From Patescibacteria group bacterium UBA661 (GTDB taxonomy: Bacteria; Patescibacteriota; Minisyncoccia; Phycocordibacterales; UBA918), in the NCBI GenBank assembly GCA_002299465.1, contig DBNX01000014.1, positions 19,052 through 83,051 of the forward strand: DNA of 64,000 nt, written 5' to 3'. Of this stretch, positions 16,715 to 61,234 are shown in pieces. Numbering within the stretch: the first letter of the stretch is position 1; the number at the start of each line of letters is the position of its first letter. The notes under the pieces were generated by a model. It saw only the letters and a list, made by a program, of their open reading frames with translations, did no database searches and was not told the origin of the DNA. Both the position numbers and the translations under genes were made by a program.

Positions 16715-17782
16715 ATGGAAATCCTCACTCTTAAAATTCTCTTGCCTTCGGTTATCGCTTTTGCGATTGGTGTCATGATTACACCAATCGTGACACACTA
16801 TCTTTACGCTTTTAAGGTTTGGAAAAAACAGGGCGGTAAAACTGATATGTTAGGAAAAACCGCTGAAGAATTCAATCGTCTTAAGGGTGACGATGAGGTA
16901 AAAACGCCACGGATGGGCGGGATTGTTATTTGGGGGAGTGTGATTATTACGGTGTCGCTATTGTTTATTCTTACCCTAGTCAACGATATTGAATTTTTTG
17001 CAGAGGTTTTTTTCCTTACTCGTTCACAAACTTGGATACCATTTGCGGTTTTTGTTATCGGGGCACTGATTGGTTTTATGAATGATTTTTATGACGTACA
17101 ACACGGTGGGCGAGGGGTGCCACTGCGAGTGCGTTTAGTTTTGATCAGTCTAATCTCAGGATTTATTGGGTGGTGGTTTTATGCAAAACTCGGGGTAACT
17201 ACCGTGGGTAATCCCTTCGGTGAGCCAATCTTCCTAGGAATTTTACTAATTCCTTTCTTTATTCTCCTCACTAACGCGGTTTATGCCAGCGGTGTTATAG
17301 ACGGCATTGATGGACTTTCCGGTGGAGTTTTTGCTACCGTTTTTGCGGCTTACGCTGGTGTCGCCATCCTCTATTCGCAATACGACTTAGCCGCTTTTTG
17401 CATAATGCTAGTGGGAGCGATTCTGGCGTTTCTCTGGTTCAATATCCCACCAGCACGTTTTTGGATGACCGAAACTGGAACAATGCCACTCACCCTCACT
17501 TTGGCAGTAATTCTCCTGATGACTGATCAGTTGGTTGGCGGATACGGAATCGCCTTGTTTGTAATTATTGGTTTTGTGCTAGCGGCCACAGTCACTTCAA
17601 ATGTTTTACAGATTGGTTTTCGCAAATTGGCTGGTCGCAAACTATTCCGCATCGCCCCCTTACATCATCATTTTGAAGCCATTGGCTGGCCTTCTTACAA
17701 GGTCACGATGCGTTATTGGGTGATCAGTATGATTTGTGCTGTGTTGGGGGTAATTATCGCTACTTTACTCGGCACAACTTAG
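16715..17782 (+). CDS. mraY: phospho-N-acetylmuramoyl-pentapeptide transferase
   Basis: Ten predicted TM helices and MraY motifs (NAVYASGVIDGIDGLSGG; HHHFE). Confidence 0.85.
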   Translation: MEILTLKILLPSVIAFAIGVMITPIVTHYLYAFKVWKKQGGKTDMLGKTAEEFNRLKGDDEVKTPRMGGIVIWGSVIITVSLLFILTLVNDIEFFAEVFFLTRSQTWIPFAVFVIGALIGFMNDFYDVQHGGRGVPLRVRLVLISLISGFIGWWFYAKLGVTTVGNPFGEPIFLGILLIPFFILLTNAVYASGVIDGIDGLSGGVFATVFAAYAGVAILYSQYDLAAFCIMLVGAILAFLWFNIPPARFWMTETGTMPLTLTLAVILLMTDQLVGGYGIALFVIIGFVLAATVTSNVLQIGFRKLAGRKLFRIAPLHHHFEAIGWPSYKVTMRYWVISMICAVLGVIIATLLGTT

Positions 17783-17799
17783 ACTAATTTAGTCACATT

Positions 17800-18921
17800 A
17801 TGCCCACCCCACACCCACCACGTTCCATCGACCTAATCTTACTTTCACTTATCGGAATACTTCTTCTAGTTGGATTTTTTACTTTTATATCAGCCTCCCT
17901 CGGTCTCTTAGCGAGGACGGGTGCTAGCTTCGGCTCAGTTGCTTTTAGTCAGTTTTTTTTTGGTATTTTGGGTGGTTTAGTCGCTCTGGTAATCACTAGC
18001 AACATCTACTATCGCAACTGGCGGCGGTACTCACTCTACATTTTTCTGGCTGGTATTTTTGCTACTTTGCTAGTTTTTGTCCCCGGTCTAGGAATGAGTC
18101 ATGGTGGAGCCACACGCTGGCTTGATCTTGGTTTTACGACCGTCCAACCGTCAGAGTTTCTAAAAATCGCCTTTGTCATTTACACTGCAGCCCTTTTTTC
18201 TGGACTGCATCGACAGCTTGATACTTGGCGTTATGGCGTACTGCCTTTTCTGGGTGTACTAGCGGTAGTTTCTGCAATCGTCCTGATTCAACCAGACACC
18301 GATACTTTTCTAGTGATGGCTGCGACCGGAACAACTATGTTCATCGTGGCGGGTGCGCGCTGGCGACATATTTTATTACTGGTTGTCACCGCGGTTTGTG
18401 TGCTGGCAGTTTTGGCTTTTAGTCGACCCTACATCATGGATCGTCTCACTACTTTTATCAATCCCGCGAATGACCCCTTGGGAAGCGGTTATCAAATCCA
18501 ACAGTCGTTGATTGCCATTGGTTCAGGTGGTCTCTTTGGTCGCGGCTATGGTCAAAGTGTTCAAAAATTTGAATATTTACCCGAGCCTATCAGTGACTCT
18601 ATTTTTGCCGTTTATGCTGAAGAATTCGGCTTTGTTGGTAGCTTTTTTTTGATTTTGCTATTTACCGCGCTTACGTTTCGTGGTTTTAAAATCGCCGCTA
18701 CGGCAGAAGATTTATTTGGGATGTTACTGGTGGTGGGTTTTATGACACTGATCGCTTCGCAAGCTTTTCTCAATATGGCAGCTTTATCAGGAATCGCCCC
18801 GCTTTCCGGTCTGCCACTGCCGTTTGTCAGCCATGGCGGAACCGCTTTATTTGCGGTTTTGGCGTCTTTGGGTATCGTTCTTAATGTGTCAAAATATCGC
18901 ATCAACCCAAGGCGGTCGTGA
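17800..18921 (+). CDS. ftsW: FtsW/RodA/SpoVE family peptidoglycan glycosyltransferase
   Basis: Polytopic SEDS family protein (QPSEFLKIAFVIY...LPEPISDSIFAVYAEEFGFVG), located between mraY and murG. Confidence 0.8.
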   Translation: MPTPHPPRSIDLILLSLIGILLLVGFFTFISASLGLLARTGASFGSVAFSQFFFGILGGLVALVITSNIYYRNWRRYSLYIFLAGIFATLLVFVPGLGMSHGGATRWLDLGFTTVQPSEFLKIAFVIYTAALFSGLHRQLDTWRYGVLPFLGVLAVVSAIVLIQPDTDTFLVMAATGTTMFIVAGARWRHILLLVVTAVCVLAVLAFSRPYIMDRLTTFINPANDPLGSGYQIQQSLIAIGSGGLFGRGYGQSVQKFEYLPEPISDSIFAVYAEEFGFVGSFFLILLFTALTFRGFKIAATAEDLFGMLLVVGFMTLIASQAFLNMAALSGIAPLSGLPLPFVSHGGTALFAVLASLGIVLNVSKYRINPRRS

Positions 18922-18933
18922 TACACTTGTTTT

Positions 18934-20043
18934 ATGAAAATTGGTTTTGTTGGCGGTGGTACAGGGGGGCATTTTTATCCGCTCATAGCAGTGGCAGAAG
19001 TGCTGATTGACTCTCCCCAAAAACCAGAATTGTACTATTTTGGTCCAGAGCCTTACGATGCCAGCTTACTTAAGCAGTGCGGTATTACTTTTGTATATTG
19101 TCCCGCTGGGAAATTACGTCTTTATTTTTCAATCCAAAACTTTTTTGATATATTTCGGAATTTTTTTGGGGTTTTCGTAGCTATTTGGAAGTTGTACTGT
19201 TTGTACCCAGATGTAATTTTTAGCAAAGGCGGTTACACAAGCGTACCAATTCTTATCGCCGCACGACTTTTGCGCATTCCGGTAGTGATTCACGAATCTG
19301 ACGCGGTACCCGGGCGGGCAAATTTGCTAGCTCGCAAATTTGCCCGCTACATCGCCATCTCCTACCCGGAAGCGGCTAAGCATTTCCCGACTGCCAAGAC
19401 CGCTCTCACTGGTATCCCGATTCGGAGAGAGCTTTTAACTCCAGACTCGGACCCCTTCAGCACCCTAGGAATACCCAATGATTTACCCTTGGTTTATGTG
19501 ACGGGTGGTTCTCTCGGGGCGGTGAGATTAAACAATGTCATACTAGAAACCCTAGATGAGTTATTACCAGTTTGTCGGGTTTACCACCAGACTGGTAAAG
19601 CTCATCTAGAGACAGTGCGTTTATCGGCACAAAGTTTTATTAAAGACAGCTCCCTCCAAGAGAGGTATTATTTGGTGGATACTCTACCGGTAGAAAAGGT
19701 TAACGCTCTTCTCACCGCGGCTTCCATTGTAATCACTCGAGCCGGTAGTACAACTTTGTTTGAAATTGGTATTCACGGTACACCCAGTATCATCATCCCG
19801 ATTCCTGAAGACATCAGTCGCGACCAGCGTAGTAACGCCTACGCCTTTGCTCGGAGTGGGGGAGCGACAGTAATTGAAGAACGCAATTTAAGTGATGTCT
19901 TGCTTACCGCGGAAATTCGTTCTATTATTGGCAACCCTGAACACTGGCGAGAAATGAGTGCTGCTGCCAAACAGTTTGTGCCACATGATGCCGCCGAAAA
20001 AATTGCGGCTAGTCTAATTCAGATTGGAATTGAACATGGATAA
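18934..20043 (+). CDS. murG: UDP-N-acetylglucosamine--N-acetylmuramyl-(pentapeptide) pyrophosphoryl-undecaprenol N-acetylglucosamine transferase
   Basis: GT28 N-terminus (GGGTGGHFYPLIAVAE) and C-terminal MurG domain; follows ftsW. Confidence 0.8.
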   Translation: MKIGFVGGGTGGHFYPLIAVAEVLIDSPQKPELYYFGPEPYDASLLKQCGITFVYCPAGKLRLYFSIQNFFDIFRNFFGVFVAIWKLYCLYPDVIFSKGGYTSVPILIAARLLRIPVVIHESDAVPGRANLLARKFARYIAISYPEAAKHFPTAKTALTGIPIRRELLTPDSDPFSTLGIPNDLPLVYVTGGSLGAVRLNNVILETLDELLPVCRVYHQTGKAHLETVRLSAQSFIKDSSLQERYYLVDTLPVEKVNALLTAASIVITRAGSTTLFEIGIHGTPSIIIPIPEDISRDQRSNAYAFARSGGATVIEERNLSDVLLTAEIRSIIGNPEHWREMSAAAKQFVPHDAAEKIAASLIQIGIEHG

Positions 20044-21508
20044 TAATCCGTCACCGACAAATAACAAAATCGTCACACGCTTTGCTCCGTCACCGACGGG
20101 TTTTATGCATATTGGGGGAGTCCGCACGGCTCTCTTTGCGTATCTTTACGCTCGCAAACAGGGTGGGAAATTCATTCTAAGAATTGAAGATACGGATAAA
20201 GCCCGAGAATTGGCTGGTTCGATTGCTCACATTCAAGAATCGCTACGTTGGCTTGGTATCAGTTGGGATTACGGTCCAGATAAACCTGGTCCTTTTGGTT
20301 CGTGTGTGCAATCAGAACGTTTGCCGAGTTATCGTGCCTGGGCAGAAAAATTAATCACGGCTGGATTTGCCTACCCTGACCCTTACACCGAAGAACAGGT
20401 TGCTGTTTTTCGTGAACAAGCCACCAAAGAAAACCGTCCGTTTTTATATCGTCAGCACCGTCCGTCTACTTTCGAAACTTGGGATGGCACCAAACCGCTT
20501 CGGCTTAAAGCCCCAGCCATTAAACGTTACCATTGGCACGATGTGACTCGGGGAGAATTGTCAGCCGGGGAAGAAATGGTGGATGATGTTGTGCTCATCA
20601 AGTCTGATGGTTATCCAACCTACAACTTCGCTCACATCATTGATGATTATGAAATGGGGGTAACGCACATTATGCGGGGCGATGAGTTTATCGCCAGTAC
20701 GCCTAAGTTTCTAAGCATCTACGATGCGCTCGGTTTTGCTTATCCGACTTTTGTGACCCTACCGCCAATCCTTCGCGATGACCGAACAAAAAAACTCGGC
20801 AAACGCGATGGTGCCAAAGACATTCTTGAATATCGCACGGAAGGTTATCTACCAGAAGCGATGGTTAATTTTTTGGCACTAATTGGCTGGAATCCGGGGA
20901 CTGATCAGGAATTGTTTACAACCGAGGAATTAATTGCGGCTTTTGATATAAGAAAAATTCAACGGGCGGGGGCGGCTTTTAACGAAACAAAACTTTTGTG
21001 GATGAATAAGCAACACTTACTACGCAAGTCCCAAGATGAGCAATTTTCTTATGTGCTAAACGCTTTACCACCAACCCTACTGGCGCAACCACAGTACTCC
21101 GAACAACGTCTAAAACGACTTCTACCAACTATTCTCGAGCGGGTGAGCGTGGCAGTGGAAGTTGCGGAGGCGTTCGCTGTGGGCGAATATGATTACGTAT
21201 TTGCTTCACCGGCATACGACCAGTCCCTCTTACGCTGGAAAAACGACACCTCGGTAGTGGCTGTCAAACCGCGTTTGGAGCACGCCAAAACACTACTTGT
21301 GACAGCTGATTTTTCTAATGCCGAAACCATTAAAGCCAGTCTGTGGCCATACACCGATGAAGTCGGTCGCGGTGAAATACTCTGGCCACTGCGCGTTGCT
21401 CTCTCTGGCAAGGAACGTTCACCAGACCCGTTTACATTGGCTTACATACTCGGTAAAGAGGAAACGCTGCTCCGAATTGAAAAGGCTTGTGCTAAAATAG
21501 GGGAATGA
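20024..21508 (+). CDS. gltX: glutamate--tRNA ligase
   Basis: Class I HIGH motif (PSPTGFMHIGGVRTALF) and KMSKS-like motif (KLGKRDG). Overlaps the murG 3' end by 20 nt. Confidence 0.9.
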   Translation: MELNMDNNPSPTNNKIVTRFAPSPTGFMHIGGVRTALFAYLYARKQGGKFILRIEDTDKARELAGSIAHIQESLRWLGISWDYGPDKPGPFGSCVQSERLPSYRAWAEKLITAGFAYPDPYTEEQVAVFREQATKENRPFLYRQHRPSTFETWDGTKPLRLKAPAIKRYHWHDVTRGELSAGEEMVDDVVLIKSDGYPTYNFAHIIDDYEMGVTHIMRGDEFIASTPKFLSIYDALGFAYPTFVTLPPILRDDRTKKLGKRDGAKDILEYRTEGYLPEAMVNFLALIGWNPGTDQELFTTEELIAAFDIRKIQRAGAAFNETKLLWMNKQHLLRKSQDEQFSYVLNALPPTLLAQPQYSEQRLKRLLPTILERVSVAVEVAEAFAVGEYDYVFASPAYDQSLLRWKNDTSVVAVKPRLEHAKTLLVTADFSNAETIKASLWPYTDEVGRGEILWPLRVALSGKERSPDPFTLAYILGKEETLLRIEKACAKIGE

Positions 21509-22830
21509 GGGTACAACGTCTCATTACGGTTTTTCTGTGTGGTCTCGTAACTTTACCGACAGTTACGTTTACTTGGTCGTATGCTTCGGCGCAAAGTCCT
21601 GATATTGCAAGTTTACAAAGAGACATCACCGAACGGGGTAGTCGTCTTTCCGAAATTGAAAGAGAAATTGAAAAATACAATCAGGAACTAAGAGTGGTGG
21701 GGGCTGAGAGACAGACCCTGCAGAGAGCTCTCGATCAACTTACTTTAGAACGGCGCCGCATTCAAGCTGAACTTTCGAGAACGCAAAATCTAATCGGCTC
21801 GACTGATCTCGAGATTAATAAATTAGCTTTAGAGATAAAGGAAGCTGAACAGTCTATTGAAATTAACGCCGCCGCTATCGCTCAGATAATTCGCTCTGAG
21901 TATAAATCGGGCGATGACACGATGGTGGAAATATTACTACAAAACAAGCGATTTTCGGATCTCTGGGACACGCTTGAAGCTAAAGAAAGAATTCGTAACA
22001 GCTTGACTGAAAAAGTAATTAGTTTAGGAGAATTTAGGCGGACACTGGAAACAAAACAGAATGAGACGAGAGCAAAAAGGGAAGATTTAGTCTCCTTAAG
22101 CAATCAATATTCCGACCAAAATCTTGTTCTCACCAATAACCAAAAGGAACGAAACAACTTACTTCAAGTAACAAAAAATGAGGAACGCCGCTACCAGCAA
22201 ATGTTGGCGGAAAGACGCGAGGCGCGCGATCAAGTCTTACAAGAGCTAAGGGATTACGAAAATCGACTTCAATTCATACTCGACCCCAAGACCATCCCGC
22301 CACTCGGTACTCAAGTGTTTGCTTGGCCGCTAAGAAATATAATAATCACACAGTATTTTGGCGGTACTGAATTTGCTCGTAGAAATCCTAGTGTTTATGC
22401 GGGTAGGCCTTTTCACCCGGGAGTTGATTTTGGTGCGCCGCGCGGCACCCCCATCCTCGCACCGCTAGCTGGTACTGTGCGTGACACGGGGAATACTGAC
22501 TTAGTGCCGGGGTGTTTTTCTTGGGGCAAATGGATACTGGTTGATCACGCTAATGGGCTCTCGACTCTCTATGCGCACTTAGATGTAATTAGCGTAAAAC
22601 CAGGACAAAGAGTGGCTACGGGCGAAATAATTGGCTATACCGGTAATACTGGGTTTTCTACGGGACCACACTTACATTTTACAGTTTATGTTAGATCGGG
22701 GGTCACTGTTAGACAATTTAACGAAATTAGAACAGTCACTAGTTGCGGTCCAGCCAAGACGCCAGTAGCCGCGACCACCGCCTACATTGATCCTCTGATG
22801 TACTTGCCGCCACCACCACGAAGAAATTAG
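21505..22830 (+). CDS. M23 (LytM) family metallopeptidase with N-terminal coiled coil (EnvC-like)
   Basis: Signal peptide, long coiled coil, and a C-terminal M23 domain (HPGVDF...GYTGNTGFSTGPHLHF). Overlaps gltX by 4 nt. Confidence 0.75.
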   Translation: MRVQRLITVFLCGLVTLPTVTFTWSYASAQSPDIASLQRDITERGSRLSEIEREIEKYNQELRVVGAERQTLQRALDQLTLERRRIQAELSRTQNLIGSTDLEINKLALEIKEAEQSIEINAAAIAQIIRSEYKSGDDTMVEILLQNKRFSDLWDTLEAKERIRNSLTEKVISLGEFRRTLETKQNETRAKREDLVSLSNQYSDQNLVLTNNQKERNNLLQVTKNEERRYQQMLAERREARDQVLQELRDYENRLQFILDPKTIPPLGTQVFAWPLRNIIITQYFGGTEFARRNPSVYAGRPFHPGVDFGAPRGTPILAPLAGTVRDTGNTDLVPGCFSWGKWILVDHANGLSTLYAHLDVISVKPGQRVATGEIIGYTGNTGFSTGPHLHFTVYVRSGVTVRQFNEIRTVTSCGPAKTPVAATTAYIDPLMYLPPPPRRN

Positions 22831-29006: not shown

Positions 29007-29999
29007 TCAGAAATCTTTTTTTCTGTATATGCGGTAAACAGCTCTCGGTGTCGGCTTTTCCTCTAAAGACCGAAACTTTCTTGCAATTGGGATGTAGTGC
29101 TTGGGAGACATACCAATGAATGTGAACGAGTACGCAATGAACTCATTAGCCTCTACCTCTAGCTGTCGACAGAGCTTTAATTTCCTGTCGATATTCTCAA
29201 ACGAGTAGCCGAGGATGTTCGGCGCCGTAGTGATCAGCTTCTGTGGGTCTTTGAACCCACGCTCACGCAACCCAGCGATTTTCCCGTCGATGTTCTCAAG
29301 CGAGTAGTTGAGGATAAGAGGCATCGAGACAATCATCTTCTGCGGGTCTTTGAACCCACGCTCTCGCAACCCAGCGATTTTCCCATCAATGTTCTCAAAC
29401 GAGTAGCCGAGGATGGCAGGCGACGTAATGATCAGCTTCTGCAGGTCTTTGAACCCACGCTCTCGCAACCCAGCGATTTTCCCGTCGATGTTCTCAAACG
29501 AGTAGCCGAGAATGGTAGGCGACGTAATGATCAGCTTCTGCGGGTCTTTGAAGCCACGCTCACGCAACCCGGCGATTTTCCCGTCGATGTTCTCAAACGA
29601 GTAGCCGAGAATGGTAGGCGACGTAATGATCAGCTTCTGCGGGTCTTTGAACCCACGCTCTCGCAACCCGGCGATTTTCCCATCAATGTTCTCAAACGAG
29701 TAGCCAAGGATGGTAGGCGACGTAATGATCAGCTTCTGCGGGTCTTCGAACCCACGCTCTCGCAACCCGGCGATTTTCCCGTCAATGTTCTCAAACGAGA
29801 GACCAAGGATGGCAGGCATCGAGACAATCATCTTCTGCAGGTCTTCGAAGCCGCGTTGTCTTAATCCTTCAATCTTTTTGCCATAATCTTCAACTGGCCA
29901 AAGGTGGTTTTTAAAGATCGAGCTGCCCTCAATACGTTCCAACCCGAAGATTTCCGCATAGAAATTTTGACGGGCGTTTCTTTCTTCTTGAGAAAGCAT
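29007..29999 (-). CDS. tandem-repeat protein with seven 33-aa mTERF-like motifs (hypothetical)
   Basis: Seven consecutive copies of G-LRERGFKDPQKLIITSPTILGYSFENIDGKIA. The pattern L..GF.d.q.i..ii..P.iLg.S.EN...K....L...GF matches the mTERF repeat consensus. Unique N- and C-terminal regions flank the repeats. Confidence 0.55.
   Translation of the reverse strand: MLSQEERNARQNFYAEIFGLERIEGSSIFKNHLWPVEDYGKKIEGLRQRGFEDLQKMIVSMPAILGLSFENIDGKIAGLRERGFEDPQKLIITSPTILGYSFENIDGKIAGLRERGFKDPQKLIITSPTILGYSFENIDGKIAGLRERGFKDPQKLIITSPTILGYSFENIDGKIAGLRERGFKDLQKLIITSPAILGYSFENIDGKIAGLRERGFKDPQKMIVSMPLILNYSLENIDGKIAGLRERGFKDPQKLITTAPNILGYSFENIDRKLKLCRQLEVEANEFIAYSFTFIGMSPKHYIPIARKFRSLEEKPTPRAVYRIYRKKDF
29178..29870. 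repeat. seven tandem 99-bp direct repeats, over 90% identical at the nucleotide level (coding)
   Basis: Unit gggtctttgaacccacgctctcgcaacccagcgattttcccgtcgatgttctcaaacgagtagccgag... recurs with only a few substitutions. Confidence 0.85.
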
Positions 30000-34658: not shown

Positions 34659-34660
34659 AA

Positions 34661-35455
34661 TTAAATATTAGCCATTGCCTTCCGTTTTTCAAATTCAGAA
34701 GCCACGATAGCTCCGTAGTAAATCACTGAGGCGATTACGTATACCCATACCAAAAGGACCAAAATAAGTCCGGCTGCACCAAAAATATTAAGAGCGGGTT
34801 TGGTCGCTAGGTAAAGAGTGACCAGGTTTTTAGCAAAAACGAATAAGAGTCCTGCTGTCAAAGCCCCTACCAAACAGCCGCTAATACTCGGTGCCTTAGC
34901 TACTAAAAATCGGTAGAGCAAGAAAAAGAAAAAAGAGATACTAAAAAACCAAATCAAGACTGGCACTAGCCGATTTTCTAATTCCAACATCGCCCAAACG
35001 CCTTCGATGCTAATGATCGCCAAAACGTAAATTTGTAGGATGGCGATAAAAAATATCGAGCGGAAAGTTTGCCAAAGCCAGGATTTTAAATCATTTTCTT
35101 GAATATTCCAGATGTGTCTAAAGCCGTAACCGAGGACATTAATAGCTGCCACACCAGTTACTGAAAAAAAAGCAATCGCTAATATAGGTACGTCGTATGA
35201 ATGTACTTGCACATCAAGATTCTGCACAGCATAGCTAATCAGAGAGGTCAGATCGGGACCAAACATCGCTCCCCAACTGATAAACATATTCCTGACAAAT
35301 TCAAAGCCAAAAAATGTACTTGAGATACCCAAAGAAATCAAAATGAGTGGCACCAAAGCGAACGGGGCGTAATAAGAGAAAGCCGCGGCGTGGTGACTCA
35401 TACCCAAGCTGATCCATAGGCTGACGGATTTAGATAATATCTGGAGACGGTGCAT
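34661..35455 (-). CDS. YihY/BrkB family membrane protein
   Basis: Six predicted TM helices with a YihY-like N-terminus (AAAFSYYAPFALVPLILI). Confidence 0.65.
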   Translation of the reverse strand: MHRLQILSKSVSLWISLGMSHHAAAFSYYAPFALVPLILISLGISSTFFGFEFVRNMFISWGAMFGPDLTSLISYAVQNLDVQVHSYDVPILAIAFFSVTGVAAINVLGYGFRHIWNIQENDLKSWLWQTFRSIFFIAILQIYVLAIISIEGVWAMLELENRLVPVLIWFFSISFFFFLLYRFLVAKAPSISGCLVGALTAGLLFVFAKNLVTLYLATKPALNIFGAAGLILVLLVWVYVIASVIYYGAIVASEFEKRKAMANI

Positions 35456-40403: not shown

Positions 40404-40474
40404 AAGTTATTCACAAAATCCACACTCTGGCGGAAAAAACGTCAAGTGTCGGTACGTGCTACAATAGCTCCACT

Positions 40475-56306: not shown

Positions 56307-56534
56307 TTAAAGTCTTTTCGTAATTCGCGCTTTTCCACCGTAAGGATCCATAACCATACCAACTTTATCGCCGACTAAAACTCGGATGCGAAACTTCCGC
56401 ATCTTACCTGCTAAGTAAGCGATTTTAAGTTCTTTCGTGTCGTCTATGATAACACGAAAAAGAGCATTAGGCAGAGCTTCCTCCACGGTGCCGTAAGTCA
56501 ACTCGTCTTTAACATCTTGGTCTTTCTGATCCAT
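56307..56534 (-). CDS. infA: translation initiation factor IF-1
   Basis: S1-like OB fold (G.V.E.LPN..FRV......E....LAGKMRK..IR.L.GDKV); 75 aa. Confidence 0.85.
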
Positions 56535-56592
56535 TAAACGACGCTGAGTTTAACAGACTGCCAGAGAATGGTCAAGTGTTTAATACACAGGT

Positions 56593-57942
56593 CTAAAGTG
56601 CTGGCGATTCTTCTATTTTTGTTTCGACGATAATTTCTTCTGGCTTGTCTGGAAATGACCTAGAATAAAAAGGTTTTCTTGTCACAGCGGCTGATCTAAT
56701 TCCGGGATGGGCTGGTAACACTACTGCCAACGCCGTGAAAGGTTTGCCTGCCAAATCAGTTTTAAGTTGCTCAGCGTCAAACTGCCAGACAATTTGTGGT
56801 CTACCCAAAATGGTGAAGTTTAAAGCAGTTTCGTTTCTCAGATCTCGAGCGCTTAAATTGGCATCCATATAAGCAAAAGTAAGGTCGTGAATATTTGTAA
56901 TCTCGACTGGTAAGTCGTTGTAAGTGGGCACTGTTTCGTTGGCTAAATAGGAAGCAAAATCACTTTTTCTAAATAGCGGTTGCTGAAGAGTGGCTTCTTC
57001 TCTTATAGTCACTAGATTTTCGCCAAATTGAATAGTTGGCAAAGATTTGTAAGTAATCGAAATGGCACCGGGAAAAGCAATAAAGTCAGCTGGTTTTTCT
57101 TCGTTAATTTTAGCTAAGAGTCTAGCGCGTAATTCTACTTGTAGGGCTTGCTGGGCAGTGGAAAGTTCAGTTCCGTCAATTTCAAAACGCAATCCTTTGT
57201 AGCCACCAGTAAAAGCGACTCGGTTTTCAGCATAGATAGAGCGAAAAAGTTCATTTAAATTGTTCTCTTGAAAACCGGGAATGTCAAACCTGGTGCCAGC
57301 TGGTAAATTGTATTCCTCACCAAAACCATCGGAAAAAACTTCTGCCCGGATGGTACCTGGAACCAGAGTTCCGGTGTTATCACGAACGGCTCCGGGCACG
57401 ACTACGGATTCTTGGATTCTGAAGATTAAGCCATCCGGACTTCTAAATCGGGTGTTTTTTATCAACCTTTCCGTGCCTGGTGTGGTTTTAATTATCTCTA
57501 GGTAACCCCTGGCTTGTTCCTCGACGTGCCTCTCCCCAGTCGCAGCCACTTGACGCTCGCCGACTTCAGTGAGCGTCATTATCTCGTAAGACAAACGTCC
57601 GTCACGTTGTTCGGGATAGGCAATAAATTCAGCATTTACAGTTGGAACTGTAAATTCCGGGTACACGGTAAGGGTGGTTTTTGAGAAAAAATAACTAGCA
57701 CCAAAAATACCACCGACAAACAAGACAATTCCTACCACGGCTACTATGACATTTAGTTTCTTTTTTGTGTTGCCGTTTTTTATTACAATTGTGTTGACAT
57801 CAAGATCCTCGGGAGCAGCTGGTCGACTCGGCCTAACGGTTGCTGTTTCTGGATTGGTATTCAATGTGTGGTTAGCAGAAAAATCTCTTTTACGTCTGGG
57901 TTCGGTTGGTCGAATGTCTTGTAAGTTCCATTTTTGTGTCAT
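56593..57942 (-). CDS. hypothetical membrane-anchored protein at the 5' side of the infA-rpmJ block
   Basis: 449 aa with a basic N-terminus, one TM helix (NVIVAVVGIVLFVGGIFGASYFF) and a large extracytoplasmic domain. No family recognised. Confidence 0.4.
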   Translation of the reverse strand: MTQKWNLQDIRPTEPRRKRDFSANHTLNTNPETATVRPSRPAAPEDLDVNTIVIKNGNTKKKLNVIVAVVGIVLFVGGIFGASYFFSKTTLTVYPEFTVPTVNAEFIAYPEQRDGRLSYEIMTLTEVGERQVAATGERHVEEQARGYLEIIKTTPGTERLIKNTRFRSPDGLIFRIQESVVVPGAVRDNTGTLVPGTIRAEVFSDGFGEEYNLPAGTRFDIPGFQENNLNELFRSIYAENRVAFTGGYKGLRFEIDGTELSTAQQALQVELRARLLAKINEEKPADFIAFPGAISITYKSLPTIQFGENLVTIREEATLQQPLFRKSDFASYLANETVPTYNDLPVEITNIHDLTFAYMDANLSARDLRNETALNFTILGRPQIVWQFDAEQLKTDLAGKPFTALAVVLPAHPGIRSAAVTRKPFYSRSFPDKPEEIIVETKIEESPAL

Positions 57943-57963
57943 AGTAATTTATAGTATAGCTTT

Positions 57964-59193
57964 TTAGTAGTGCTCAAATTTCGTATGTTGCCCCGGTGTG
58001 TGGAAAAACTGAGCCGAGATTAACAAAGCCGTATCTTGTTGGCTTTTCCGTAGTCTATCACTTAACTCCTCCGGGTAAAACTTGGTAATAAGCTCAAAAG
58101 AAGTCGGGTAAGTGGCGTGATCAGATCGGGTCGCCTTTTCCGCCGCGTCATCTATTCGCTTCATAAAGAATTCCTCATTACGCAGATTGCCGTGAATAAA
58201 AATCTTCTTTGGTATCGATAAAGAATCTCCCGTTTCTTTGAATAATTCCACTAATTTTGCCTCGTAAGAGTCAAAAATCTCCTTAACCTCAGATCGTTTC
58301 TCCGCCGTATATTTTTCTAATGCCGCCATCGGATCGGGCGTATGTAAATAACCAAAAGCCTCTTCTAAGGGGACTGACAAAACATTTGCCAATTCTCGCG
58401 CGATGGAAAAAACTCCAAAAGGCGTATGTGTAGTGTGTTGTAGAATACCGTTTCTGATTACCCCTAGTTCAGTGGCTTCGTAGGTTATGTCAACCAAGCA
58501 ATACTCAGTTAGTTCTGGTTGTAATTGGCGTATCACAGAATAATAAACCAGCATAAAAGAGTACAAACGAGCAGTTGCTCGGGGCATAATTTTTTCAAGA
58601 GACTCAGCCACGGTTTTTATTAAATAGTCTTGGGCTACAACATTAGCTTGGATAACCTTAAGAGTTTTGGCTGTCTGATCCGCAGGTTCGGAAATTTCAT
58701 AGCCGTTAGCTAATAAACCGATGGTAGTTTTTGTGACTACCGAGAGTCCGAGTTGTTGAATTTTTTCTTGACTGGCAATTTCTTCAGACAGTTTAGTATT
58801 AGCTGTGCGCAAAAGTTCATCCACCAATTTTTGCGAGACTGTAAAATCACTGCTGTGACTGTAAGAGATTTCTTTGGTAACAGTGTATGACCAAGGAGCG
58901 GCAATGGTAATCTGTACTTCTAAAACTTGTCTAGATTTAGAAAGTGTTTCCAATGCCTTCATCCCCTCCCCGTCCAAGCGCATTAAGGCGTTCATAAGCG
59001 ACACCATAACGTGTTTAGCACTAGCCGTAAGGGATTCAGAGTGTCGAAGTGGTACAAACTCACGCTCGACCCAGATTATTTGAGGATAAGCTAATTGTGG
59101 ATCACTTTTAATAATTGCTACCAAAACACTGCCGGAGCCAATATCAACCAGCACCCCGTATCTGACTTTTGATCCTGGATTAGCAAATAACAT
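57964..59193 (-). CDS. Ppx/GppA-like (ASKHA sugar-kinase/actin-fold) phosphatase family protein, tentative
   Basis: N-terminal phosphate-1-like motif VLVDIGSGSVLVAII and a later D-I-x4-TEL motif (LVDITYEATELGVI) reminiscent of Ppx/GppA; 409 aa. A PilM/FtsA-like actin-fold ATPase is the alternative. Confidence 0.35.
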   Translation of the reverse strand: MLFANPGSKVRYGVLVDIGSGSVLVAIIKSDPQLAYPQIIWVEREFVPLRHSESLTASAKHVMVSLMNALMRLDGEGMKALETLSKSRQVLEVQITIAAPWSYTVTKEISYSHSSDFTVSQKLVDELLRTANTKLSEEIASQEKIQQLGLSVVTKTTIGLLANGYEISEPADQTAKTLKVIQANVVAQDYLIKTVAESLEKIMPRATARLYSFMLVYYSVIRQLQPELTEYCLVDITYEATELGVIRNGILQHTTHTPFGVFSIARELANVLSVPLEEAFGYLHTPDPMAALEKYTAEKRSEVKEIFDSYEAKLVELFKETGDSLSIPKKIFIHGNLRNEEFFMKRIDDAAEKATRSDHATYPTSFELITKFYPEELSDRLRKSQQDTALLISAQFFHTPGQHTKFEHY

Positions 59194-59260
59194 GATACTA
59201 ACCAGTATAGCAAAATGTCTTGGCGGGATTGATTTTTACTTTAAGATTTAGGGGATAGCA

Positions 59261-61234
59261 TCAATCGGTAAAAATGGCCTTGATTCGTCTCACGCCGGCG
59301 GCCGAGGACTCTTCTTTACTGATTTTAAAGGTGCTTGGCAATTCTTCGAGGCGTTCGACATGTGGTCCGCCACAAAGTTCTCGGGAAAAAATTTCACCCT
59401 TGTAGCCGGTCATCGTGTAAACTTTAACTTCGTCTGGATAACGGTCCCAAAAACTAGCTTCAATAGTTTTATCAGCTTGTGCCACCGACTTAGGTAAAAT
59501 TTCAATACTGACTACCCCACCGCTTTTGATGGCTTCATTAACGTAATTTTCAACTTCATTTATTTGCTCGGGAGTAAGCTTGTCAGGGTGAGTAAAATCA
59601 TAGCGGGACCTTTCGCCGGTTATGTTGGAGCCGGCCTGGTGCACGTGTTCACCCAAAACCTTACGCAGTCCTGCCAATAGTAAATGGGTAGCGGTGTGGT
59701 ACTGAATTACTCTAGTTGAGTTATCTGCCAAACCACCCTTAAATTTATGTTCAGCCCCAATCCGAGAAGCGTCTTTGTGGGCTTGCATTTTTAAGTTAAA
59801 TTGCTCTCGACTTACCGTTAGTTTACGTTCCTGTGCCATTTCTTCAACAATTTCTATCGGAATCCCATAAGTAGTTACAAACTTAAAGACCACCTCCGAA
59901 TCAAGCTCGCGACTTTCGCCTACTTCTTTTTTTGCTGATTCACCCCGATTAAGATCTTCCGTTAAGTTGTATTTATCAAACTCTTTTTCAAATTCTCGGA
60001 AACCTTTAGCGAGAGTCTTGCGGAATTGCTCTTCTTCCTGACTGATGGCCTGCAAAATCTGAGTTTCTTGTTCTTTTAGATTTGGATACTGATTTTGGTA
60101 GGTGGCAATTACGCTTTTGGCTAATTCCGCAAAACGCCCTGCCGGCACAGCGATGCGATCCGCATACCGAACCGCCCGCCGCAGTAGGCGACGAACAAAG
60201 TATGGCTGATCAGTATTCCCCGGGTTTACCCCGTCACCAATTAACAGCACGGCTCCGCGTAAGTGGTCCGTGATAACGCGAAAAGCAATTAAATCGTCTT
60301 CGTAATTTTTACCAGAAAGGCGTGAAATATGGGCGACTACGTCAGCTAGTAAATCTACCTTAAAAATATCGGGATCAGCATTTTTGGCAGCGGCAATACG
60401 CTCCAAGCCACCACCAAAATCAACGTTACGTTGGGCTAATTTTGAGAAAGTACCGTCTTCGTTTTTGATGTATTCAATAAAAACCGAGTTGCCGATTTCA
60501 AGAAATTGTCCAGAGTCGCTGTTAGGATGAGGGGCTTGGGCAGCAAAGACGGGGTGAGTGGCGAAGGTGGGACCAAAATCGTAAAAAACTTCGCTGTCTG
60601 GTCCACCAATCTCACCGCTAGGCATAGCTGCCGGCTTGCCAGCGCGACTCCACCAATTTTTGGTGGCATCGTAATAAAAAATCCGACCTCCTTGCATTCC
60701 AATTTCGTAACCAGCTGCTTCCGATCCGATATGCACTGCCTTGGCTTCAATTCCACGTTCAGCAAAAAGCTCTTGCCAAATAGCTACCGCCTCCTCATCG
60801 CGTGGGATGCCGAGGGATTCATCCCCAGCAAAAACTGTCACATAAATTCGATTGGGGTCAAGACCAACCTCATCTACTAAAAAAGTAAAAAACCACCGTA
60901 ATTGTTCCTGCTTAAAATAATCACCGAGTGACCAATTACCCAACATTTCAAAAAATGTGGTGTGTCGATTATCCCCCACTTCTTCAATATCATTGGCGCG
61001 AAAACACTTTTGTGAGTTTACCAAACGGACCCCTTTGGGGTGTTTTTCACCTAGTAAATACGGTATTAGTGGTTGCATTCCGCTGCCAGTAAACAATGTC
61101 GTCGGGTCATTTTCTGGCACAAGAGCCGAGGACGGAATAATTGCGTGCTTCCGGCTTTCCATAAAATTAAGATATTTGTCTCGAATCGTGTTTCCTCCCA
61201 TATTGCATTGAATTAATTTATGATTTAAAGGCAC
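59261..61234 (-). CDS. alaS: alanine--tRNA ligase, short form lacking the C-Ala domain
   Basis: The class II catalytic core, tRNA-recognition domain and editing domain (HTATHLL...CGGPHV) are all present and the protein ends after the editing domain (657 aa). The ORF-track start is GTG at 61234; an ATG lies at 61201. Confidence 0.85.
   Translation of the reverse strand: MPLNHKLIQCNMGGNTIRDKYLNFMESRKHAIIPSSALVPENDPTTLFTGSGMQPLIPYLLGEKHPKGVRLVNSQKCFRANDIEEVGDNRHTTFFEMLGNWSLGDYFKQEQLRWFFTFLVDEVGLDPNRIYVTVFAGDESLGIPRDEEAVAIWQELFAERGIEAKAVHIGSEAAGYEIGMQGGRIFYYDATKNWWSRAGKPAAMPSGEIGGPDSEVFYDFGPTFATHPVFAAQAPHPNSDSGQFLEIGNSVFIEYIKNEDGTFSKLAQRNVDFGGGLERIAAAKNADPDIFKVDLLADVVAHISRLSGKNYEDDLIAFRVITDHLRGAVLLIGDGVNPGNTDQPYFVRRLLRRAVRYADRIAVPAGRFAELAKSVIATYQNQYPNLKEQETQILQAISQEEEQFRKTLAKGFREFEKEFDKYNLTEDLNRGESAKKEVGESRELDSEVVFKFVTTYGIPIEIVEEMAQERKLTVSREQFNLKMQAHKDASRIGAEHKFKGGLADNSTRVIQYHTATHLLLAGLRKVLGEHVHQAGSNITGERSRYDFTHPDKLTPEQINEVENYVNEAIKSGGVVSIEILPKSVAQADKTIEASFWDRYPDEVKVYTMTGYKGEIFSRELCGGPHVERLEELPSTFKISKEESSAAGVRRIKAIFTD

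What the first reader, a model, noticed from the sequence alone, without database searches (positions are those of the whole stretch)
56593..59193. Two uncharacterised genes at the 5' side of infA-rpmJ-rpsM, where secY-adk-map normally sit
The conserved alpha operon (infA-rpmJ-rpsM-rpsK-rpsD-rpoA-rplQ) is intact. The genes immediately preceding infA, however, are a 449-aa single-pass membrane protein with a large extracytoplasmic domain and a 409-aa protein with Ppx/GppA or actin-like ASKHA-fold motifs (VLVDIGSGS; D-I-x4-TEL). These take the place of the usual secY-adk-map. They are tightly packed (22-nt gap) and co-directional with the ribosomal genes, which suggests co-transcription. A membrane protein plus an actin-fold ATPase pair may be an uncharacterised envelope, division or pilus-related module (compare PilM-PilN, FtsA-FtsN), or a polyphosphate phosphatase with a membrane partner.
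Basis: inference. Interest (0 to 1): 0.5.

Follow-up and report, generated by a model that had tools for sequence, protein, structure and literature searches.

The report
Actin-like protein with baseplate-like membrane partner
Just upstream of a ribosomal gene cluster, this ultra-small bacterium (Paceibacteria/Parcubacteria) carries two real but uncharacterised genes, one for an FtsA/PilM-type actin-fold protein and one for a single-pass membrane protein whose outer domain resembles a phage baseplate wedge, and the two stay side by side across most of the lineage, which points to an undescribed cell-envelope module.

Summary
Gene A (57964-59193, minus strand, 409 aa) and gene B (56593-57942, minus strand, 449 aa) are real genes lying between alaS and infA-rpmJ-rpsM. 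No secY, adk, map or rplO occurs in the window or in about 150 related loci.

B has an invariant cytoplasmic N-terminal peptide (MTQKWNLQDIRP), a disordered linker, one transmembrane helix, and an ectodomain related to phage baseplate-J/wedge proteins in both sequence and fold.

The order alaS-A-B-infA holds in all 72 related genomes. In a broader metagenome sample A sits next to B in 53 loci, but 10 loci have B without A. B relatives form 6,455 clusters, and every named one is a Parcubacteria "hypothetical protein".

A, B and infA each have their own conserved -10-like box, so co-transcription with the ribosomal genes is not required.

Best reading: a third PilM-PilN/FtsA-FtsN-like cytoplasm-to-envelope couple of unknown role. 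The A-B contact is inferred, not shown.

The parts
57964..59193 (-). Gene A: a 409-aa soluble FtsA/PilM-type actin-fold protein with subdomains 1A, 1C, 2A and 2B
59128..59145 (-). Phosphate-1 motif of A (D17-I-G-S-G-S22)
   Evidence: Invariant or nearly invariant in 48 close homologues. The family-wide form is D-I-G-S-[GA]-S.
58468..58491 (-). Phosphate-2 motif of A (D235-I-T-Y-E-A-T-E242). It has the form of PilM's DIGAEST motif (that PilM motif is quoted from memory).
   Evidence: T237, E239, T241 and E242 are invariant and D235 nearly invariant in the close clade. In 47 distant homologues the motif is D-[IV]-x-G-E-V-T-[DE].
58186..58206 (-). Position of the adenosine motif in A (I-F-I-H-G-N-L, residues 330-336), where the canonical GG pair is absent
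   Evidence: Family-wide this position reads [IV]-F-L-[TV]-[AV]-D, so nucleotide binding is probably altered or lost (inference).
56593..57942 (-). Gene B: a 449-aa bitopic membrane protein (N-terminus in the cytoplasm, C-terminus outside)
   Evidence: ORF. AF2 model pLDDT 84. No Pfam or NCBIfam family passes its cut-off. A profile of B finds 6,455 clusters at E<=1e-3.
57907..57942 (-). Invariant cytoplasmic N-terminal peptide of B (M-T-Q-K-W-N-L-Q-D-I-R-P), the proposed docking peptide for A
   Evidence: M1, K4, W5, N6, L7, Q8, D9, I10 and P12 are invariant in 46 sequences, while residues 16-57 are variable and have pLDDT below 50. Distant members carry x-[LIV]-Q-D-[IV]-x-P-P-x-x-R-S-I-R-x-I-P.
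57685..57765 (-). Transmembrane helix of B (residues 60-86)
   Evidence: AF2 predicts a helix at residues 60-86. The segment is hydrophobic, and 12 K/R lie on its N-terminal side (sequence).
56608..57678 (-). Extracytoplasmic domain of B (residues 89-445), baseplate-J/wedge-like
57283..57534 (-). Segment of B with sequence-level similarity to phage baseplate wedge proteins (residues 137-220), which includes the most conserved stretch E-R-L-I-K-N-T-R-F…V-V-V-P-G
   Evidence: PHROGs phrog_6 'baseplate wedge subunit' matches at E 2e-5. Two distant B members match the same profile region at 9e-6 and 8.7e-7. Relatives give weak Pfam hits to GlxA and Baseplate_J. Conservation is shown.
59204..59211 (-). 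-10-like box (tTGCTATACT) 10 nt upstream of the ATG of A
   Evidence: Sequence. A TAnnnT box lies at -19 to -12 in 65 of 66 related loci.
57953..57960 (-). -10-like box (GCTATACT) in the 21-nt A-B spacer, 10 nt upstream of the ATG of B
   Evidence: Sequence. Conserved in 67 of 72 related loci.
56547..56575 (-). Promoter-like site of infA (TTGACC, 17-nt spacer, TG, TAAACT) in the 58-nt B-infA spacer
   Evidence: Promoter scan. TTGAC-N17-TGTTAnACT is conserved in 66 of 67 related loci.
56307..56534 (-). infA, the first gene of the infA-rpmJ-rpsM-rpsK-rpsD-rpoA-rplQ cluster (context)
   Evidence: Pfam eIF-1a. It lies immediately downstream of B in nearly all related loci.
59261..61234 (-). alaS, a short form of 646-657 aa and the conserved upstream neighbour (context)
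   Evidence: Pfam tRNA-synt_2c and tRNA_SAD. Synteny.

Best explanation
A and B are a lineage-wide (Parcubacteria/Paceibacteria) two-gene module built on the PilM-PilN / FtsA-FtsN principle.

A is a soluble FtsA/PilM-type actin-fold protein that has no membrane anchor of its own. It has probably lost normal adenine-nucleotide binding, so it more likely acts as a scaffold than as an ATPase.

B is a bitopic membrane protein. Its short invariant cytoplasmic N-terminal peptide is proposed to dock on A, by analogy in the 1A/1C cleft. This would tie a cytoplasmic A assembly, through a flexible linker and one transmembrane helix, to a large extracytoplasmic domain homologous to phage/CIS baseplate-J wedge proteins. 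Those proteins form rings in baseplates.

The module is distinct from both the divisome FtsA and the type IV pilus PilMN. Its conservation and housekeeping neighbourhood point to a core envelope process such as division, wall growth or a surface machine.

Shown here: the genes are real, both folds, the topology, the conserved N-terminal motif, the synteny, and the separate promoter-like boxes. Inferred: the physical A-B contact, oligomerisation, and the cellular role.

For: The C-terminus of A is structured and conserved (D-x-[AF]-L-x-[ILV]-[SE]-x-x-F). No linker-plus-amphipathic-helix is present, so A needs a membrane partner.

B has an invariant N-terminal peptide, a disordered variable linker, a transmembrane helix and a folded ectodomain. 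The peptide motif persists across distant members at about 37% identity.

A lies immediately upstream of B in every one of the 72 species-representative genome loci whose contig reaches that far. The same holds in three distant loci, where the upstream gene matches the A profile at E 1e-34 to 1e-39, and in 53 metagenome loci.

Pairwise distances of A and B correlate at r 0.82. The partial correlation controlling for ribosomal proteins is 0.58, against 0.24 for A-alaS and for B-alaS. This is weak support for co-evolution.

The ectodomain of B is baseplate-J/wedge-like by three independent methods.

No pilus, ftsZ or ftsQ genes lie nearby. According to Meheust et al. 2019 (PMC6744442), CPR bacteria carry canonical PilM/N/O co-located with PilB/C/T.
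Against: No complex prediction or experiment was possible, so the A-B contact is an analogy.

Ten loci from broader lineages have alaS directly followed by B, with no A within about 7 kb, yet B keeps its N-terminal motif there. Either A is encoded elsewhere in those genomes or the motif has another partner.

The B-infA linkage is at least as conserved as the A-B linkage.

A and B each have their own conserved promoter-like box, so they need not be co-expressed.

The N-terminal motif of B (LQDIxP) is not the PilN INLLP motif. The mirror-tree signal can arise from shared rate variation.

I could not determine whether these genomes also carry a canonical FtsA.
Confidence: 0.5

Rival explanations
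1. A is the lineage's working FtsA, that is the FtsZ membrane tether, in a divergent form. B is its divisome partner, functionally like FtsN or FtsQ and supplying the membrane anchor. The pair is then simply the division apparatus of Parcubacteria.
Against: A is never next to ftsZ or ftsQ in about 150 loci. It has no C-terminal membrane-targeting helix. It scores far below TIGR01174 (24.5 against 175.85). Its phosphate-2 motif is PilM-like. A is absent from the locus in 10 lineages where B persists. The window's mraY-ftsW-murG block lies 37 kb away. Binding to FtsZ was not tested.
Confidence: 0.2
2. The two proteins do not work together, and the adjacency is inherited gene order in tiny, slowly rearranging genomes. 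B acts alone as an envelope or surface protein whose N-terminal motif binds something else, and A has a different partner.
For: The genes have separate conserved promoter-like boxes. Ten loci have B without A and keep the B motif. The whole neighbourhood is syntenic, from PDDEXK nuclease, MGMT-like gene and peptidase through alaS to infA and on to dnaK. Conserved order alone is therefore weak evidence for interaction.
Against: A soluble PilM/FtsA-fold protein without an anchor sitting beside a bitopic protein with an invariant cytoplasmic peptide is exactly the architecture of two known interacting pairs. The A-B partial distance correlation (0.58) exceeds the alaS controls (0.24). Adjacency holds in all 72 close loci that reach far enough and in 53 of 63 evaluable broader loci.
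Confidence: 0.2
3. The pair is a divergent PilM-PilN of a type IV pilus or competence machine.
Against: No pilB, pilC, pilT, pilO or pilin genes lie within 7-10 kb in any locus examined. B is 449 aa with a baseplate-J-like ectodomain, not a coiled coil plus ferredoxin-like PilN domain, and gives no PilN Pfam hit. TIGR01175 scores 18.6 against a cut-off of 133. CPR bacteria are reported to have separate canonical PilMNO co-located with PilBCT.
Confidence: 0.06
4. B is a remnant of a prophage or contractile injection system baseplate, and A is unrelated.
For: The baseplate J/wedge similarity.
Against: No other phage or CIS gene lies nearby. B has a transmembrane anchor and a conserved cytoplasmic motif. 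It holds a fixed housekeeping position between alaS or A and infA in about 150 loci, belongs to 6,455 clusters, and has 65% mean column identity in its clade.
Confidence: 0.02
5. A is a Ppx/GppA-type polyphosphatase with a membrane partner.
Against: These hits rank far below FtsA/PilM. A has the 1C subdomain that Ppx lacks. No Ppx-GppA Pfam hit appears even at E<=1.
Confidence: 0.01

Closest known systems
PilM-PilN (type IV pilus alignment subcomplex; structures 2ych and 5eou)
   Same: It pairs a soluble actin-fold protein carrying a 1C subdomain and no membrane anchor with a bitopic partner. The partner's short conserved cytoplasmic N-terminal peptide precedes a single transmembrane helix. 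The phosphate-2 motif has the D-x-x-x-E-x-T form. The gene order puts the actin-like gene first and the membrane partner second.
   Different: No pilus genes are nearby. The peptide motif is LQD[IV]xP rather than INLLP. B is twice the size of PilN and carries a baseplate-J-like ectodomain instead of a coiled coil plus ferredoxin-like domain. No PilO partner is present. The adenosine GG motif is lost. The family models TIGR01175 and Pfam PilN are not matched.
FtsA-FtsN (divisome; FtsA structures 7q6d, 1e4f, 3wqt)
   Same: It gives the best structural match. FtsA binds the cytoplasmic N-terminal peptide of bitopic FtsN. The genes are housekeeping and broadly conserved.
   Different: A has no C-terminal amphipathic membrane-targeting helix and is not adjacent to ftsQ or ftsZ. 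TIGR01174 is far from met. The ectodomain of B is unrelated to SPOR domains.
Baseplate J / wedge proteins (T4 gp6, Mu gp47, P2 J, diffocin TRI-2)
   Different: B is a cellular, membrane-anchored protein with a cytoplasmic tail. It sits in a fixed chromosomal housekeeping locus with no other baseplate, sheath or tube genes. The Pfam Baseplate_J cut-off is not reached, and the relative domain orientation differs (TM-score about 0.15-0.2).
GlxA (Streptomyces lividans membrane-associated cuproenzyme, 4unm), beta-barrel domain PF21110
   Different: Only the barrel domain is shared. B has no galactose-oxidase propeller and no sign of a copper site.
GspL/EpsL (type II secretion)
   Same: It carries a PilM-like cytoplasmic actin-fold domain that no longer binds nucleotide, coupled through one transmembrane helix to a periplasmic domain. 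This is the same logic, fused into one chain (established knowledge, not tested here).
   Different: Here the parts are two separate proteins. No T2SS genes are present, and the outer domain is different.

Membership tests
FtsA (TIGR01174 / PF14450) | Actin fold with the 1C subdomain replacing 1B | tested here: met
FtsA (TIGR01174 / PF14450) | Score above the curated family cut-off | tested here: not met
   TIGR01174 scores 24.5 bits against 175.85. PF14450 scores 25.4 against 31.8. PRK09472 scores 13.3 against 409.
FtsA (TIGR01174 / PF14450) | C-terminal amphipathic membrane-targeting helix after a flexible linker | tested here: not met
   The C-terminus (DTALLISAQFFHT…FEHY) is modelled as part of the fold (helix 388-398, strand 406-408, block pLDDT 92 and 78). 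It is conserved as a core helix family-wide, and distant members end right after it.
FtsA (TIGR01174 / PF14450) | Genomic linkage to ftsZ or ftsQ | tested here: not met
   tblastn with E. coli FtsZ found no hit in the window, in 77 kb of the source contig, or in about 150 related loci.
FtsA (TIGR01174 / PF14450) | Binds the FtsZ C-terminal peptide | not testable with these tools
   This needs complex prediction or biochemistry.
PilM (TIGR01175) | Score above the curated family cut-off | tested here: not met
   18.6 bits against 133.
PilM (TIGR01175) | Encoded with pilN, pilO and other type IV pilus genes | tested here: not met
   No such Pfam families appear among neighbours within 7-10 kb.
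PilM (TIGR01175) | Binds the conserved cytoplasmic N-terminal peptide of a bitopic partner | not tested
PilM/FtsA ATP-binding site | Phosphate-1, phosphate-2 and adenosine (GG) motifs | tested here: inconclusive
   P1 (DIGSGS) is conserved. P2 is present but degenerate in the window clade (DITYEATE) and PilM-like in distant members (D[IV]xGEVT[DE]). The adenosine GG is replaced by HGN or [TV][AV]D throughout.
PilN (PF05137) | About 200 aa, with an INLLP N-terminal motif, a transmembrane helix, a coiled coil and a ferredoxin-like periplasmic domain | tested here: not met
Baseplate_J (PF04865) / phage wedge proteins | Sequence match above the cut-off | tested here: not met
   The window protein gives no PF04865 hit. 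Nine of 46 relatives hit weakly (best E 0.009). phrog_6 matches at E 2e-5 over residues 137-220 only.
Baseplate_J (PF04865) / phage wedge proteins | Fold similarity to solved or predicted wedge proteins | tested here: met
Baseplate_J (PF04865) / phage wedge proteins | Part of a tail or CIS gene cluster | tested here: not met
   All neighbours are housekeeping genes.
Ppx/GppA (PF02541) | Family HMM match and Ppx-type two-domain fold | tested here: not met

The most novel reading that the evidence does not exclude
Parcubacteria have recruited a baseplate-wedge (gp6/J/TssF-type) ring-forming domain to the outer face of the cell membrane. They have coupled it, through a PilN/FtsN-style cytoplasmic peptide, to a nucleotide-degenerate FtsA/PilM-type actin. 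Together these would form a previously unrecognised trans-membrane machine that is a core, near-universal part of cell division or envelope organisation in this very large uncultured lineage. It may stand in for the membrane tethering that FtsA's own helix provides elsewhere.
Probability: 0.3. Interest if true: 0.75.

Novelty: new variant of a known kind. Interest (0 to 1): 0.55.

Why it matters
Parcubacteria/Paceibacteria make up a large share of bacterial diversity. Few or none have been cultured (my understanding, not checked here), and their cell biology is almost unknown.

This is a two-gene module present across the lineage. B relatives form 6,455 clusters at 50% identity, and every named one is annotated 'hypothetical'. 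The module has a fixed chromosomal position and combines two well-understood parts in an arrangement not described before: an FtsA/PilM-type actin and a baseplate-wedge-like ectodomain.

That gives a concrete, testable entry point into how these ultra-small cells organise their envelope or divide. It would also be an example of a phage-baseplate fold used as a cellular housekeeping component.

In practical terms, automated pipelines variously label A as 'FtsA', 'PilM' or 'hypothetical'. Inferences about division or pili in CPR metagenomes and metatranscriptomes may therefore be miscounting this family.

Tried and rejected
1. The Ppx/GppA reading of A is rejected by the fold ranking and the absence of a Pfam hit.

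2. Sequence-profile searches of the PDB with both family alignments returned only chance-level hits. hhalign of the A profile against E. coli HofM (a PilM homologue) gave nothing. Against E. coli FtsA it gave only E 9e-4. The assignments therefore rest on structure.

3. I looked for canonical ftsZ, ftsA, pilM, secY, adk and map in the window, in 77 kb of the source contig and in all fetched loci, and found none. One apparent 'ftsA' hit in L139 is MreB.

4. The afdb50 fold library was unavailable.

5. The first metagenome scan, with a too-diverse alignment, failed. It worked with a narrower alignment.

6. In L143 I checked whether an A gene was hidden by an alternative genetic code in the alaS-B gap. 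The 1.1-kb gap is non-coding in all frames.

7. Rfam found no RNA element in the window. The terminator scan found no convincing terminator between A, B and infA.

8. Eight literature searches found no description of this pair.

9. One look-up of a window gene failed because of an uncertain TTG start.
Full report
**Observation**

Gene A is 57964-59193 (409 aa) and gene B is 56593-57942 (449 aa). They are 21 nt apart.

Downstream on the same strand lie infA, rpmJ, rpsM, rpsK, rpsD, rpoA, rplQ, rplM, rpsI, grpE, dnaK and dnaJ. Upstream lie alaS, a 78-aa membrane ORF, an M3 oligopeptidase and an HD_4 protein.

The window is part of a 107,856-bp contig from JGI metagenome 3300031922. tblastn with E. 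coli SecY, RplO, Adk and Map found nothing in the window or in the related loci. The infA cluster therefore does begin without secY-adk-map.

Both ORFs are real genes. Gene A has 396 homologues and gene B more than 829 at E<=1e-3, and every named one comes from Parcubacteria/Paceibacteria and is called 'hypothetical'.

**Gene A**

Pfam and NCBIfam give only sub-threshold FtsA and PilM signals. An AlphaFold2 model built on 48 homologues is confident (pLDDT 89.3).

A is not a member of either curated family. It scores far below both cut-offs. Its C-terminus is a conserved, structured core helix and not a linker followed by an amphipathic membrane-targeting helix.

Across 47 distant homologues the motifs are as follows:
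- Phosphate-1 is conserved (DIGS[GA]S).
- Phosphate-2 has a PilM-like form (D[IV]xGEVT[DE]). In the window clade it is DITYEATE.
- The adenosine GG pair is replaced everywhere ([TV][AV]D, or HGN in the window clade).

'ATPase' is therefore unproven, and a scaffold role is more likely. This last point is inference.

**Gene B**

No curated family matches B. The AlphaFold2 model (pLDDT 84) has four parts:
- An N-terminal tail of low confidence.
- A disordered, variable linker (residues 16-57).
- One transmembrane helix (residues 60-86).
- A confidently folded 360-residue domain.

Twelve K/R residues precede the helix, which indicates an N-in/C-out topology. This topology is read from the sequence.

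The first 12 residues (MTQKWNLQDIRP) are invariant in 46 homologues although the linker is not. In members at about 37% identity the motif reads x-[LIV]-Q-D-[IV]-x-P-P-x-x-R-S-I-R-x-I-P. A short invariant cytoplasmic peptide on a flexible tether is the hallmark of a docking motif.

The ectodomain resembles phage baseplate wedge/J proteins by three independent routes:
- PHROGs phrog_6 'baseplate wedge subunit' matches residues 137-220 at E 2e-5. Two distant members match the same profile region at 9e-6 and 8.7e-7.
- In Foldseek against BFVD, 11 of the 20 best hits are named baseplate J-like or baseplate proteins, 8 are unnamed and one is a phage structural protein. Alignments reach 350-450 columns, but TM-scores are low, so domain order is shared while orientation is not.

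A profile of B finds 6,455 clusters at 50% identity at E<=1e-3, and 1,813 at E<=1e-30, in 1.84 billion representatives.

**Linkage**

A scan of one genome per species returned 72 loci at 32-55% identity to A. The records are labelled Kaiserbacteria, Nomurabacteria, Paceibacteria and, in many TPA assemblies, Saccharibacteria, a label that looks wrong given their similarity to the Paceibacteria loci. In every locus whose contig reaches far enough, the order is alaS-A-B-infA-rpmJ-rpsM-rpsK.

Three loci carrying much more distant B proteins have the same order. Their upstream genes of about 390-417 aa match the A profile at E 1e-34 to 1e-39.

A metagenome scan seeded with distant B sequences gave 80 further loci. 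A lies immediately upstream of B in 53 of them.

Ten loci with ample upstream DNA have alaS directly followed by B and no A within the fetched locus. These are L114, L116, L120, L121, L139, L140, L143, L147, L157 and L159. B keeps its N-terminal motif in all ten. In L143 the 1.1-kb alaS-B gap is non-coding in every frame.

Adjacency of B to infA is nearly universal.

Pairwise distances of A and B correlate at r 0.82. The partial correlation controlling for ribosomal proteins is 0.58, against 0.24 for A-alaS and for B-alaS. This is weak support for co-evolution.

**Expression signals**

The window has almost no Shine-Dalgarno sequences. Many genes carry a TGnTAnAAT-like box 10-17 nt before the start codon.

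A and B each have GCTATACT exactly 10 nt before the ATG. infA has TTGACC-17-(TG)TAAACT in the 58-nt spacer after B.

These boxes are conserved at the same distance in 65 of 66 related loci for A, 67 of 72 for B and 66 of 67 for infA. The genes therefore look like separately promoted transcription units with short or absent leaders. Co-transcription with the ribosomal genes is neither needed nor excluded, because no terminator was seen between them.

**Mechanism**

The anatomy matches two known couples. In both, an FtsA/PilM-fold protein binds the cytoplasmic N-terminal peptide of a bitopic protein: PilM-PilN (2ych, 5eou) and FtsA-FtsN (PMC7613929).

A has no membrane anchor of its own. B offers an invariant cytoplasmic peptide on a flexible tether.

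The most likely working model is that B recruits A to the membrane. This would link a cytoplasmic A assembly to an external domain related to baseplate wedge proteins, which form rings in phage and CIS baseplates. The A-B contact, any oligomerisation and the cellular role are all inferred.

The module is distinct from the pilus system. No pilus genes lie within 7-10 kb, and CPR bacteria are reported to carry canonical PilMNO next to PilBCT (PMC6744442). It is not a canonical FtsA either: there is no ftsZ or ftsQ linkage, no membrane-targeting helix, and the cut-offs are not met.

I could not establish whether these genomes also carry a canonical FtsA. That is the key open point, because if they do not, A-B may be the Z-ring tether.

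**Novelty and verdict**

Eight literature searches found no description of this pair. Meheust et al. 2019 mention 20 mostly hypothetical families enriched in Parcubacteria, 12 of them predicted to be membrane proteins, without characterising them.

I rate this a new variant of a known kind: an FtsA/PilM-type actin plus a bitopic partner, here with a baseplate-J-like ectodomain and a fixed housekeeping locus. The genes, folds, motif and synteny are solid. The interaction and function are plausible but untested. Interest is moderate to high.

Noticed in passing
whole window; for example 21490-21504, 40458-40474 and 34659-34675: Shine-Dalgarno-like sequences are almost absent upstream of the 60 or so genes. 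Many genes instead have an extended -10-like box (TGCTAnAAT or TATACT) only 10-17 nt before the start codon. This suggests widespread leaderless or very short-leader mRNAs in this organism.
   Followed up: partly
56535-56592 (B-infA spacer) and the same spacer in L003-L076: The infA upstream region is strikingly conserved across about 67 species. It reads TTGAC-N17-TGTTAnACT, followed by a near-invariant ...CGTTTA directly before the ATG. The conserved stretch between the -10 box and the ATG might be a regulatory or translation-initiation element for IF1.
   Followed up: partly
29007-29999 (-): A 330-aa protein hits the mTERF domain clearly (E 3.7e-28, three stretches). To my knowledge that family is mainly eukaryotic and organellar, so it looks unusual in a bacterium.
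   Followed up: no
59261-61234 (-): alaS is a short form (646-657 aa) that ends with the tRNA_SAD domain, so the usual C-terminal extension appears to be missing. Its start is ambiguous: the ORF list starts it at GTG 61234, while the JGI gene call starts about 11 codons later (646 aa). Among relatives its identity to the window copy falls into two groups, about 57-63% and about 67-72%, which hints at two alaS types.
   Followed up: no
16715-22830 (+): A partial dcw block, mraY-ftsW-murG, is followed directly by gltX and an M23 peptidase and preceded by a D,D-carboxypeptidase and scpA/scpB. No murC-F, ftsQ, ftsA or ftsZ occurs anywhere in the 64-kb window or in the 77 kb of the contig that I examined.
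   Followed up: partly
whole window: ARAGORN found no tRNA or tmRNA genes, and Rfam found nothing at gathering thresholds, in 64 kb of a small, gene-dense genome.
   Followed up: yes
L143 5844-6988 (contig FLOH01000029.1): In one lineage that lacks A, the alaS-B gap is 1.1 kb of non-coding DNA. The same translated peptide strings recur in different reading frames, which indicates internal repeats. It may be the scar of a lost A gene or an inserted repeat element.
   Followed up: no
L166 1213-5997 (source contig beyond window position 1): An N6/N4 DNA methyltransferase plus a ResIII helicase lie just outside the window. They look like a type III restriction-modification system.
   Followed up: no
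57943-57990 (3' end of A and the A-B spacer): The conserved C-terminal codons of A (…F-E-x-x-stop, TTTGAG…) contain a TTGA(G/A)C string in many relatives, just upstream of B's -10-like box. The conservation at the end of A may partly reflect B's promoter. The spacing to the -10 box is irregular, so this is uncertain.
   Followed up: no
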